Assembly (NCBI GenBank): GCA_000004985.1
Contig: GG739501.1
Direction: 5' to 3' (one strand)
Source of the DNA: Naegleria gruberi
Lineage: Eukaryota
Length of the DNA: 1,207 bases
Part shown: one piece after another, positions 1 through 1,207 of the stretch
Numbering within the stretch: position 1 is the first letter of the stretch
Layout: the number at the start of each line of letters is the position of its first letter
The notes under the pieces: model-generated
What the model saw: only the letters and a program-made list of their open reading frames with translations
Told to the model about the DNA's origin: nothing
Databases searched by the model: none
Program-made: the position numbers and the translations under genes

Positions 1-199
1 ATATTACTTTAAAGTTCGTGTGTTTAAGACTGTGTTATAGTCATGATGAATATCAATGATACTGAACTTTCGCATTCTTCCCAACCATAACATGTTAGTT
101 ACTTGGTGCTGATTCTAGGACTTAAACGAATAAACAACTCTCTAGTAATCATTATAACAACACAATAACCGCTAACAAACTCAATAGAAAATATAACAA

Positions 200-838
200 A
201 TGTCCAATAAGAAGCAAAGACAATTTAGCAAGCGTTTATTTAATAGTAAGGTAATGGATTTTTTAGAAGCAGCTGCTGTTGTTGAGGAGAGGGAGAAGAA
301 TGAAGCTGTTCACAAAGTACAACAGGAGCCAACTGTAGAAGAACCAAGGTTGAAAGGATTGAGAAGGTGGTTGTTGAAGAAAGGAAGGAAGAAACTCTTG
401 AAGCTTGTTGAAACTGTTTCCGAATCAGATGTTTCCAAAGAGAACAAAGAGAAGAGTGAAGATAACATAGTGGTTGCTGTTGTTTCTGAAGAGAAGGAAG
501 GAATTTCTTCCGCACAAGTTATTAAGCAAGATTATGCTGAAGAAATCCCATTATTTGTCGGTTCTTTAGATATTATGATGCATTTTATTGCGCAAGCCTT
601 CTCATCATTCCAAAAGAATATGATGAAGGAGATGAGAGAAGAAATGCAAAAGAATATAAAGGAGATGAAAGAAGAAATGCAAGAGCTAAAGAAAGATATG
701 AAAAAGGAAATCAAGGATGTTAAGAAAGACATAAATGACTTGAAAAAGGAGGTCAAGGATGTTAAGAAAGATGTGAGTGAGATAAAGAGGGATGTTAGGA
801 CTGTTAGAAAGATATTGATGAATTACAGAAAGATATGA
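200..838 (+). CDS. Hypothetical Lys/Glu/Met-rich coiled-coil repeat protein (212 aa). Basic N-terminal segment, central hydrophobic patch, C-terminal heptad/hendecad repeats. The C-terminus is probably truncated by a frameshift.
   Basis: This is the longest ORF in the window and has no internal stops. The ATG at 200 is the first in-frame ATG after the in-frame TAA at 194-196, and the next in-frame ATG is at 254. Codon choice is varied and position 3 looks coding-like from 200 to about 800. The translated C-terminal half has hydrophobic residues (M/I/V/L) spaced 3,4,4,3,4..., which is a coiled-coil signature. There is no Shine-Dalgarno motif upstream, consistent with a eukaryotic gene. The stop at 836-838 is suspect because coding-like repeats continue downstream in other frames. 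Confidence 0.55.
   Translation: MSNKKQRQFSKRLFNSKVMDFLEAAAVVEEREKNEAVHKVQQEPTVEEPRLKGLRRWLLKKGRKKLLKLVETVSESDVSKENKEKSEDNIVVAVVSEEKEGISSAQVIKQDYAEEIPLFVGSLDIMMHFIAQAFSSFQKNMMKEMREEMQKNIKEMKEEMQELKKDMKKEIKDVKKDINDLKKEVKDVKKDVSEIKRDVRTVRKILMNYRKI
626..691 (+). repeat. Two tandem 33-bp units encoding 11-aa units KEMREEMQKNI / KEMKEEMQELK. A third diverged copy lies at 879-911 in a different frame.
   Basis: Direct read: aaggagatgagagaagaaatgcaaaagaatata (626-658) followed by aaggagatgaaagaagaaatgcaagagctaaag (659-691). The core 'ggagatgaaagaagaaatg' recurs exactly at 881-899. Confidence 0.8.
711..796 (+). repeat. Two tandem 42-bp units encoding 14-aa units (two heptads each).
   Basis: The exact 19-nt string tcaaggatgttaagaaaga occurs at 711-729 and 753-771, an offset of 42. 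Flanking bases are diverged but alignable. The string agaaagatatgaa also recurs near 689-701, 827-839 and 857-869. Confidence 0.75.
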
Positions 839-885
839 AAGAAATGAATGAATTTAAGAAAGATATGAATGATTTAAGAAGGAGA
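808..885 (+). pseudogene. Out-of-frame continuation of the coiled-coil coding repeat in frame 1 (KDIDELQKDMKEMNEFKKDMNDLRRR), bounded by TAG 805-807 and TGA 886-888.
   Basis: The translation has the same K/D/E/M heptad-type motif as the upstream CDS (compare KKDINDLKKEV with KKDMNDL). It overlaps the last 10 codons of ORF 200..838, so it cannot be a separate exon. Deleting 1 bp in the a-run around 806-811 would fuse it in frame as ...RDVRTVRK-DIDELQKDMKEM.... Confidence 0.5.
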
Positions 886-986
886 TGAAAGAAGAAATGG
901 ATGGATTAAAGCAAGAATTGACTAATGTTGTTACTGGTTTGAATGAATTTAACAATGAGATGAGATTGGAGAAGTTAAATCTGAAC
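873..986 (+). pseudogene. Further continuation in frame 0 (FKKEMKEEMDGLKQELTNVVTGLNEFNNEMRLEKLNLN), bounded by TGA 870-872 and TGA 987-989.
   Basis: It contains a near-exact copy (879-911) of the 33-bp KEMKEEMQELK unit from 659-691, here read in frame 0. The two copies are 220 bp apart (220 mod 3 = 1), which proves a net frame slip between paralogous repeat units. The frame 1 to frame 0 switch must occur within 873-885. Confidence 0.5.
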
Positions 987-1036
987 TGAATAGGGTGAAC
1001 AAGAATGTTGACACCCTGTACCAACTCTTAGAGTAA
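959..1036 (+). pseudogene. Final continuation back in frame 2 (DEIGEVKSELNRVNKNVDTLYQLLE*), terminating at TAA 1034-1036. This is probably the ancestral C-terminus and stop.
   Basis: The coding-like, coiled-coil-like translation ends in a non-repetitive tail (VDTLYQLLE) and is followed by AT-rich non-coding-looking sequence. It is the same frame as ORF 200..838. The frame 0 to frame 2 switch coincides with the gagat-gagat 5-bp tandem duplication at 957-966. Confidence 0.5.
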
Positions 1037-1181
1037 TTATTAAGAGAAAAATATAATATTGTCCCTTAAAGATATGTCAATTTTCATTCAGAAAGAGACA
1101 ATTACAAGAAAAGGAGATGACCTAATTATTGAAATTGTTTGCAAACTTTAACTACTCAGTGGCTAATTATCAACACCATCC

Positions 1182-1187
1182 AATAAA
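1182..1187 (+). promoter_or_regulatory. Candidate poly(A) signal hexamer AATAAA in the 3' flank.
   Basis: An exact AATAAA lies about 145 nt downstream of the putative ancestral TAA (1034-1036) in AT-rich non-coding sequence. It is only meaningful if the locus is eukaryotic and transcribed, and the hexamer is common in AT-rich DNA. Confidence 0.2.
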
Positions 1188-1207
1188 AACATATTGCTGA
1201 TATGTAT

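What the first reader, a model, noticed from the sequence alone, without database searches (positions are those of the whole stretch)
800..1036. Coiled-coil ORF continues past its stop through three successive -1 frame shifts that return to the original frame
After TGA 836-838 the same repeat-type coding signal continues in frame 1 (808-885), then frame 0 (873-986), then frame 2 (959-1033), ending at TAA 1034-1036. Each switch is -1 and the three together restore the original frame. A conceptually repaired protein (...RDVRTVRK-DIDELQKDMKEMNEFKKDMNDL-KKEMKEEMDGLKQELTNVVTGLNEFNNE-IGEVKSELNRVNKNVDTLYQLLE*) is a coherent extension of about 65-70 aa of the heptad pattern. So either the annotated 212-aa product is a recently truncated allele or pseudogene of a roughly 275-280 aa protein, or the sequence carries three indel errors in a repeat region. 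Three real compensating indels would mean only the 60-odd residues between the first and last shift are scrambled, which would be an unusual way for a repeat protein to evolve.
Basis: seen in the sequence. Interest (0 to 1): 0.65.

Follow-up and report, generated by a model that had tools for sequence, protein, structure and literature searches.

The report
Frameshift-broken tail of Naegleria coiled-coil gene
The 3' third of an orphan Naegleria gruberi coiled-coil gene is broken by three small slippage deletions, so the annotated 212-residue protein is a truncated remnant of a longer repeat protein; this is ordinary gene decay, not a recoding mechanism.

Summary
The window is a complete 1207-bp Naegleria gruberi contig. 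ORF 200-838 is the annotated 212-aa protein NAEGRDRAFT_55017.

After TGA 836-838 the same heptad-repeat coding signal continues in three frames (808-885, 873-986, 959-1033), each shift -1, to TAA 1034-1036. The signal is frame-specific and is not a composition effect (local-alignment sum 160 against 70 +/- 8 in shuffles). DNA repeat copies change register by 3n+2 at two of the shifts.

The only relative found anywhere is an independent metagenome contig, about 95% identical.
- It is colinear through the whole region, and homology stops one base after the TAA.
- It has the same length at shift 1.
- It reads in one frame across shift 2.
- It differs by one AG unit at shift 3.
- It carries its own nonsense codon and frame-breaking indels.

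No intact long homologue exists in any collection searched.

Best reading: real slippage indels in a decaying or truncated lineage-specific repeat gene. Sequencing error cannot explain shift 1 but remains possible for shifts 2 and 3. A 192-nt GTGAGT...AG intron spanning the broken region, in frame in both copies, is a low-probability rival. Programmed frameshifting is rejected. Interest is low.

The parts
200..838 (+). Annotated ORF: NAEGRDRAFT_55017 / XP_002667992.1 / EFC35248.1, 'predicted protein', 212 aa. Its last 8-10 residues (ILMNYRKI) are out-of-frame read-through.
611..807 (+). In-frame (frame 2) heptad / 14-residue coiled-coil repeats (21-, 33- and 42-nt DNA periods).
804..811 (+). 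Shift 1 (frame 2 to frame 1). One base is missing from GTT-AAG-AAA-GAT or GTT-AGA-AAA-GAT; the window reads GTTAGAAAGAT. L001 has the same length here (GTAAGAAAGGT).
808..872 (+). Frame-1 repeat segment KDIDELQKDMKEMNEFKKDMN. 0 stops, SW 54 against the upstream repeats.
866..878 (+). Shift 2 (frame 1 to frame 3). The window differs from L001 by a net 8 nt. The simplest reading is a 9-nt in-frame unit plus loss of one A (GAATTT to GATTT). L001 reads KEFKNEFKKEMK in one frame.
876..964 (+). Frame-3 repeat segment KKEMKEEMDGLKQELTNVVTGLNEFNNEM(R). 0 stops, SW 52. Includes D5 copy 878-899, 95% identical to the in-frame copy at 625.
960..966 (+). Shift 3 (frame 3 to frame 2) in an AG-dinucleotide tract between ATG and ATT. 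The window has (AG)1 and L001 has (AG)2. Only (AG)0 or (AG)3 would be in frame.
965..1036 (+). Frame-2 terminal segment IGEVKSELNRVNKNVDTLYQLLE plus TAA. It has 1 synonymous difference from L001 in 72 nt, and homology with L001 ends at 1037.
773..964 (+). Candidate intron or exitron (rival reading). It is 192 nt, from GTGAGT to GAG|ATT, and 174 nt with the same ends in L001. Removal keeps the frame and the heptad register in both copies.
346..404 (+). Segment inside the annotated ORF that is read out of the ancestral frame. The annotated reading is RLKGLRRWLLKKGRKKLLKL; the reading supported by L001 and by the internal repeats is KVERIEKVVVEERKEETLEA. It lies between a 1-nt deletion at 346 and a 129-nt indel at 403/404.
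   Evidence: (D6, D7)

Best explanation
The window is a small unplaced Naegleria gruberi contig. It carries a lineage-specific (orphan) gene with three parts: a variable acidic N-terminus, a conserved hydrophobic segment, and a long K/E/D/M-rich heptad-repeat coiled coil. That coiled coil originally ran to TAA 1034-1036, giving a protein of about 280 aa.

Its 3' third has been broken by small replication-slippage indels in short A / AG-rich repeats.
1. Shift 1 is a one-base loss at about 806-808. The only known relative has the same length there, so the loss is probably old and real.
2. Shift 2 is a one-base (or net 8-nt) change at about 866-873 that is specific to the window.
3. Shift 3 is a contraction of an (AG)n tract at 960-966.

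Translation therefore stops at TGA 836-838. The annotated 212-aa 'predicted protein' is a truncated allele or pseudogene remnant. Bases 839-1036 are a relic of coding sequence, and the return to the original frame is coincidental.

Shown: the frame path, its homology to the upstream repeats, colinearity with the relative, the same length at shift 1, and further independent lesions in both copies. Inferred: that the indels are biological rather than base-calling errors at shifts 2 and 3, and that the locus is non-functional or truncated rather than spliced.
For: Identity: the 212-aa ORF is 100% identical to XP_002667992.1 on a 1207-bp contig.

The frame-specific coding signal and the register shifts of the DNA repeats are documented. 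Heptad spacing continues across shifts 1 and 2.

The relative L001 comes from an ENA metagenome assembled with MEGAHIT.
- It is about 95% identical from the upstream region to the TAA, and unrelated after it.
- It has no length difference at shift 1, is in one frame across shift 2, and has one more AG unit at shift 3.
- It has its own lesions: indels of -2, -8 and -10 nt, a CAA-to-TAG nonsense codon at window 912-914, and a 1-nt difference at window 346 that splits its N-terminus.

Substitutions between the copies are 8 synonymous and 20 non-synonymous. This gives pN/pS 0.54, not significantly below 1 (p = 0.11).

No intact homologue was found. All other hits are generic repeat or coiled-coil matches confined to residues about 100-210. 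No Pfam family reaches its cut-off.
Against: - Only two sequences exist, so the direction of each indel is inferred.
- Both copies return to the starting frame (1/3 x 1/3 by chance).
- The terminal 72 nt (1.4% divergence) and 514-772 (1.3%) are more conserved than the broken region (4.1%). This suggests some constraint on the flanks and fits the intron rival.
- Outside 773-964, 3 of 4 indels between the copies are multiples of 3. Inside it, 0 of 4 are. My hand calculation gives a Fisher p of about 0.07.
- The contig is short Sanger whole-genome-shotgun sequence, so base-calling error at shifts 2 and 3 is not excluded.
- The shared state at shift 1 could also be two independent deletions (GTTAAG to GTTAG in the window, to GTAAG in L001).
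Confidence: 0.6

Rival explanations
1. Sequencing or assembly error. Some or all of the three one-base deficits are base-calling or consensus errors in a low-coverage, possibly collapsed-repeat, Sanger contig. The real gene would then be intact, or broken only at shift 1.
For: - The contig is only 1207 bp and appears to wrap around like a collapsed tandem unit.
- All window-specific one-base deficits (346, about 873, about 965) are losses within A or AG runs.
- L001 is in frame across shift 2.
- The three shifts cluster within 160 nt.
Against: - Shift 1 has the same length in an independent Illumina assembly.
- The substitution rate in 808-964 is not raised relative to the flanks beyond what is seen elsewhere in the gene, and 965-1037 is almost identical to L001. 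The region therefore does not look like a poor read tail.
- There are no homopolymers of 4 nt or more in 800-1036.
- Correcting position 346 would break the annotated ORF rather than mend it.
Confidence: 0.2
2. The broken region is removed by splicing. The candidate is a 192-nt GTGAGT...AG intron or exitron (773-964), which may have arisen by intronization of decaying repeats. A shorter 35-nt intron (773-807) would cover shift 1 only. The product would be about 215 aa, joining ...KEVKDVKKD to IGEVKSELNRVNKNVDTLYQLLE.
For: - GTGAGT at 773 and AG at 963-964 are conserved in L001 (777 and 949-950).
- The lengths, 192 and 174 nt, are both multiples of 3.
- All four frame-breaking indels between the copies in this part of the gene, and L001's nonsense codon, lie inside it.
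- The flanks are about 3 times less diverged.
- The spliced product keeps perfect 3-4 hydrophobic spacing.
- The mean N. gruberi intron is 203 bp (PMC8296547).
- Intronization of exonic sequence is a recognised route of intron gain (PMC3488318).
Against: - The 'intron' carries a strong frame-specific coding signal homologous to the upstream repeats, with heptads continuous across position 772/773. It was therefore coding until recently.
- Any valine codon (GTN) in frame 2 gives a phase-compatible GT, and GAG codons supply AG, so a compatible pair is nearly guaranteed. Only the GTGAGT consensus is unexpected, at roughly 1 in 20 by my estimate.
- The 3' site is GAG, which from general knowledge is the least used, and no pyrimidine tract precedes it.
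- The JGI gene model has no intron, and no transcript-derived protein appears in the databases.
- L001 is also broken outside this region, at window 346.
Confidence: 0.08
3. Programmed recoding: three successive -1 ribosomal frameshifts, or transcriptional slippage, produce the long protein.
For: Only the pattern itself: three -1 shifts that restore the frame.
Against: - No X_XXY_YYZ heptamer, canonical or relaxed, lies in any overlap zone, and no run of 4 or more identical bases is available for polymerase slippage.
- The relative does not conserve the shifts. It is in frame at shift 2 and shifted +1 at shift 3.
- Three low-efficiency events in series would yield almost no product (general knowledge).
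Confidence: 0.01
4. Composition artefact: AG-rich repeat DNA merely looks coding in whichever frame happens to be open.
For: An open path with 3 or fewer switches occurs in 10.8% of dinucleotide shuffles.
Against: - Off-path frames have 3-5 stops each and low similarity to the upstream repeats.
- The real sum of the top three scores is 160, against 70 +/- 8 in shuffles, with 0 of 500 reaching it.
- DNA repeat copies up to 95% identical lie in shifted register.
Confidence: 0.01

Closest known systems
Frameshift-disabled pseudogenes and truncated alleles produced by replication slippage in repeat-containing genes
   Same: Small indels in short mono- or dinucleotide and tandem repeats. Recognisable coding signal continues out of frame. 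A related copy carries additional independent lesions. pN/pS is not distinguishable from neutral.
   Different: No intact parent or orthologue has been found, so it cannot be called a pseudogene 'of' anything. Parts of the locus (514-772, 965-1036) are more conserved than expected under uniform neutral decay.
Short heptad / 7-11-14-residue repeat coiled-coil proteins of unknown function (for example hits P0035, P0010, P0007: ...DLQEVKSDLQEVKSDLQTVNTKLDQLLSK)
   Same: The repeat type is the same (x-V-K-x-D-[IV]-x-[DE]-[LI]-K-x). A hydrophobic segment precedes the repeats, and the C-terminal cap V-N-x-x-[LV]-D-x-L resembles EVKSELNRVNKNVDTLYQLLE. The repaired C-terminus aligns colinearly with P0035 across shifts 2 and 3.
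   Different: The similarity is confined to the low-complexity repeats. There is no homology in the N-terminal 130 residues and no curated family above threshold. This is a resemblance, not membership.
Intronization of exonic sequence / exitrons (PMC3488318; tandem-duplication intron gain, PMC4974935)
   Same: A coding-derived stretch, a multiple of 3 in length, bounded by GT...AG. Its removal keeps the frame, and the disabling mutations accumulate inside it.
   Different: There is no RNA evidence. The 3' site is weak, and the coincidences needed are modest.

Membership tests
Frameshift-disabled pseudogene / truncated allele | Coding-type sequence homologous to the gene continues beyond the disabling lesion in another frame | tested here: met
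Frameshift-disabled pseudogene / truncated allele | Lesions are real, not sequencing errors | tested here: inconclusive
   An independent assembly has the same length at shift 1. Shifts 2 and 3 are window-specific, and no reads are available.
Frameshift-disabled pseudogene / truncated allele | An intact functional parent or orthologue exists | tested here: not met
   The only relative is itself broken. N. gruberi genomic DNA itself could not be searched.
Frameshift-disabled pseudogene / truncated allele | Neutral substitution pattern (dN/dS about 1) | tested here: inconclusive
   pN/pS 0.54 from 28 substitutions, p = 0.11; rates vary between regions
Programmed -1 ribosomal frameshift site | Slippery heptamer X_XXY_YYZ in the zero frame within the overlap | tested here: not met
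Programmed -1 ribosomal frameshift site | Shift site and frame arrangement conserved in relatives | tested here: not met
   L001 is in frame at shift 2 and +1 at shift 3
Spliceosomal GT-AG intron (773-964) | GT...AG boundaries in a phase that joins the flanking ORFs, conserved in the relative | tested here: met
Spliceosomal GT-AG intron (773-964) | Length within the species' range | tested here: met
   192 nt against a mean of 203 bp (PMC8296547)
Spliceosomal GT-AG intron (773-964) | YAG acceptor with a pyrimidine-rich tract; non-coding character of the interior | tested here: not met
   The acceptor is GAG and the sequence upstream of it is AG-rich. The interior has a frame-specific coding signal.
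Spliceosomal GT-AG intron (773-964) | Junction seen in RNA | not testable with these tools
   No transcript data are accessible; PRJEB23822 exists.
Pfam Baculo_PEP_C (PF04513) / DUF1664 (PF07889) | Score at or above the gathering cut-off | tested here: not met
   33 bits against 38, and 30 against 34.6; about 100 coiled-coil families match weakly

The most novel reading that the evidence does not exclude
The frame-scrambled stretch 773-964 may be spliced out as a young intron or exitron, born by intronization of decaying coiled-coil repeats. It runs GTGAGT...AG, is 192 nt here and 174 nt in the relative, and keeps both the frame and the heptad register when removed. The gene would then still make a functional protein of about 215 aa with the conserved C-terminal cap. 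That would be intron birth caught at an early stage in two Naegleria lineages.
Probability: 0.08. Interest if true: 0.55.

Novelty: new member of a known kind. Interest (0 to 1): 0.2.

Why it matters
The main value is for annotation. The N. gruberi model NAEGRDRAFT_55017 (212 aa) is a truncated reading of a decaying or misread orphan repeat gene, and part of its annotated sequence (346-404, 808-838) is out-of-frame translation.

It also illustrates that AG-rich coiled-coil repeats stay open in several frames, so frameshifts there can escape gene callers. Only the unlikely splicing reading would have wider interest, as a candidate case of intronization.

Tried and rejected
- Homologue searches found only the window's own protein and one broken relative. 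These were: the repaired 279-aa protein against 5.8 billion proteins; phmmer of the 212-aa protein against 1.84 billion representatives; protein-guided scans of JGI metagenome and viral contigs; and degenerate DNA patterns for the C-terminal cap and the hydrophobic core in metagenome, viral and prokaryote genome contigs. The other 73 phmmer hits are generic repeat matches.
- Pfam and PHROGs gave only sub-threshold coiled-coil noise.
- Rfam found nothing; SNORD63 at E = 0.37 is chance.
- An exact look-up of P0001's contig found no record.
- A literature search for the metagenome project PRJEB11402 found nothing.
- The N. gruberi genome paper is not held, so the species' splice-site consensus could not be checked.
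- Short GT-AG introns at shifts 2 and 3 were rejected. There is no GT at all in 838-900, and no phase-compatible GT/GC...AG pair around 911-974 (reading).
- -1 PRF and transcriptional slippage were rejected.

Full report
**What the window is.** The 212-aa ORF at 200-838 is 100% identical to the Naegleria gruberi 'predicted protein' XP_002667992.1 / EFC35248.1 (NAEGRDRAFT_55017, UniProt D2W6Q4). Its longest recorded contig is 1207 bp, so the window is the whole contig. G+C is 33%, which matches the N. gruberi genome (PMC8296547).

**Check of the observation.** Frames are named by the window position of the first codon base. A three-frame translation confirms every coordinate.
- Frame 2 ends at TGA 836-838.
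- Frame 1 is open at 808-885 and reads KDIDELQKDMKEMNEFKKDMNDL.
- Frame 3 is open at 873-986 and reads KKEMKEEMDGLKQELTNVVTGLNEFNNEM.
- Frame 2 is open again at 959-1033 and reads IGEVKSELNRVNKNVDTLYQLLE, followed by TAA 1034-1036.

An open path alone is not remarkable. 10.8% of dinucleotide shuffles can be crossed with three or fewer switches.

The signal is, however, frame-specific.
- Path frames have no stops and local-alignment scores of 54, 52 and 31 against the upstream in-frame repeats. Off-path frames have 3-5 stops and scores of 10-20.
- The top three scores sum to 160, against 70 +/- 8 (maximum 97) in 500 shuffles.
- The DNA repeats prove the register change. Family D2 has spacings 33, 42, 62, 30, 53, 42, so two steps are 3n+2. 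A 22-nt unit encoding KEM(R/K)EEM recurs at 878, 95% identical but 220 nt (3n+1) from its in-frame copy at 658.
- Hydrophobic 3-4 spacing runs unbroken through shifts 1 and 2.

**Related sequences.**
- A search with the repaired 279-aa protein against 5.8 billion proteins found only the window's own protein and one relative, P0002.
- An exhaustive phmmer search of 1.84 billion cluster representatives added only generic repeat hits confined to residues about 100-210. Examples are EVKQDVSDVKQ and DVSELKT repeats. None shares the N-terminal 130 residues.
- Scans of metagenome, viral and prokaryote contigs found nothing.
- No Pfam family reaches its cut-off.

The gene is therefore an orphan.

**What the relative shows.** P0002 lies on a 1129-bp MEGAHIT contig from an ENA metagenome, L001. 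L001 is about 95% identical to the window from the upstream region through the coding region. Homology stops one base after the TAA at 1034-1036, so that TAA, not TGA 836, is the end of the conserved unit.

At the three shifts:
1. At shift 1 the two sequences have the same length (window GTTAGAAAGAT, L001 GTAAGAAAGGT).
2. At shift 2 L001 is 8 nt shorter and reads KEFKNEFKKEMK in a single frame. The simplest account is a 9-nt in-frame unit plus loss of one A in the window (GAATTT to GATTT).
3. At shift 3 the window has ATG-AG-ATT and L001 has ATG-AGAG-ATT. This is an AG-unit slippage series in which only 0 or 3 units are in frame.

L001 is itself broken.
- It has a 2-nt deletion at window 783-784.
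- It has a 10-nt deletion at window 921-930.
- It has a CAA-to-TAG nonsense codon at window 912-914.
- A 1-nt difference at window 346 splits its N-terminus into a separate 59-aa ORF.

That last difference also shows that residues RLKGLRRWLLKKGRKKLLKL of the annotated window protein (346-404) are probably an out-of-frame reading of KVERIEKVVVEERKEETLEA. The VVEER motif recurs in frame at 278 and 479 but out of frame at 370 (families D6 and D7).

**Selection.** The copies differ by 28 substitutions, 8 synonymous and 20 non-synonymous. This gives pN/pS 0.54, not significantly below 1 (p = 0.11). Divergence is uneven:

| Region | Divergence |
|---|---|
| 200-345 and 405-513 | 6-8% |
| 514-772 | 1.3% |
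| 773-964 | 4.1% |
| 965-1037 | 1.4% |

**Most likely explanation (about 0.6).** These are real slippage indels in a decaying or C-terminally truncated lineage-specific repeat gene. The annotated protein is a remnant, bases 839-1036 are relic coding sequence, and the return to frame is a one-in-three coincidence.

**Rivals.**
- *Sequencing or assembly error (about 0.2).* This remains possible for shifts 2 and 3. The contig is tiny and all window-specific deficits are losses in A or AG runs. It cannot explain shift 1, where L001 has the same length. The region has no homopolymers of 4 nt or more and no excess of mismatches.
- *Splicing (about 0.08).* Bases 773-964 (192 nt; 174 nt in L001) begin with GTGAGT and end with AG in both copies. 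Both lengths are multiples of three.
  - For: the stretch contains all four frame-breaking indels of this part of the gene and L001's nonsense codon. It is flanked by better-conserved sequence, and its removal keeps the frame and the heptad register. Its size is close to the species' mean intron length of 203 bp.
  - Against: its interior was clearly coding until recently. Any valine codon supplies an in-phase GT. The acceptor is GAG with no pyrimidine tract. There is no RNA evidence.
- *Programmed frameshifting or transcriptional slippage.* Rejected, because there are no slippery heptamers and no runs, and the relative does not conserve the shifts.

**Comparison with known things.** This is an ordinary kind of event: a frameshift-truncated repeat gene or pseudogene. 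It is not on record for this locus. It cannot formally be called a pseudogene of a known parent, because no intact parent was found. The repeats resemble a widespread type of short heptad-repeat protein, including a similar C-terminal cap. That similarity is low-complexity resemblance, not family membership.

**Verdict.** Interest is low (0.2). The only reading with wider interest is intronization, at a probability of about 0.08.

Noticed in passing
window 1178-1207 joined to 1-40; L001 42-118: The contig seems to wrap around. Window 1178-1192 (ATCCAATAAAAACAT) matches L001 42-57. In both sequences the match lies exactly 15 nt before the point where window base 1 / L001 base 73 begins. Joined end-to-start, the window reads ...SNKNILLICIYYFKVRVFKTVL* in one frame; L001 reads ...LNKNMMDAAQYYFKVRVFKTVLWS*. 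This suggests the 1207-bp contig is one period of a collapsed tandem repeat, or a circle. The 15-18 nt in between are oddly diverged.
   Followed up: partly
window 346-404: Inside the annotated ORF, a 1-nt deletion (CCAAAGG to CCAAGG relative to L001) and a 129-nt indel at 403/404 bracket a stretch that is read in a different frame from L001 and from the internal VVEER repeats. The basic RLKGLRRWLLKKGRKKLLKL is probably a frame-shifted acidic KVERIEKVVVEERKEETLEA.
   Followed up: partly
window 1037/1038; L001 1023/1024: Homology between the two contigs ends abruptly one base after the TAA stop, although upstream non-coding sequence (1-57) is 98% identical. The 3' flanks are unrelated, which points to a duplication, rearrangement or cassette boundary at the stop codon.
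   Followed up: partly
window 58-196: 139 nt immediately upstream of the start codon are replaced by 7 nt in L001. The short direct repeat TCAAT occurs at 53-57 and 182-186.
   Followed up: no
window 514-772: The hydrophobic segment (QVIKQDYAEEIPLFVGSLDIMMHFIAQAFSSFQKNMM) and the first repeats show only 3 substitutions in 226 aligned nt. The flanking coding sequence shows 6-8%. This points to local constraint or recent gene conversion.
   Followed up: partly
window 292-324 and 626-658: Two 33-nt (11-codon) in-frame indels relative to L001. The second is a copy-number change of the 33-nt KEM(R/K)EEMQ... repeat unit.
   Followed up: no
window 1-40: The 3' end of an upstream ORF (...YYFKVRVFKTVL*, frame 2) is conserved in L001, where it is called as a 38-aa partial gene. 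It was too short to search.
   Followed up: no
L001 906-908 and 796-798: The relative carries an in-frame nonsense codon (TAG, where the window has CAA 912-914) and a TAA inside its 26-nt scrambled stretch. L001 is therefore itself non-functional in this region unless the region is spliced out.
   Followed up: yes
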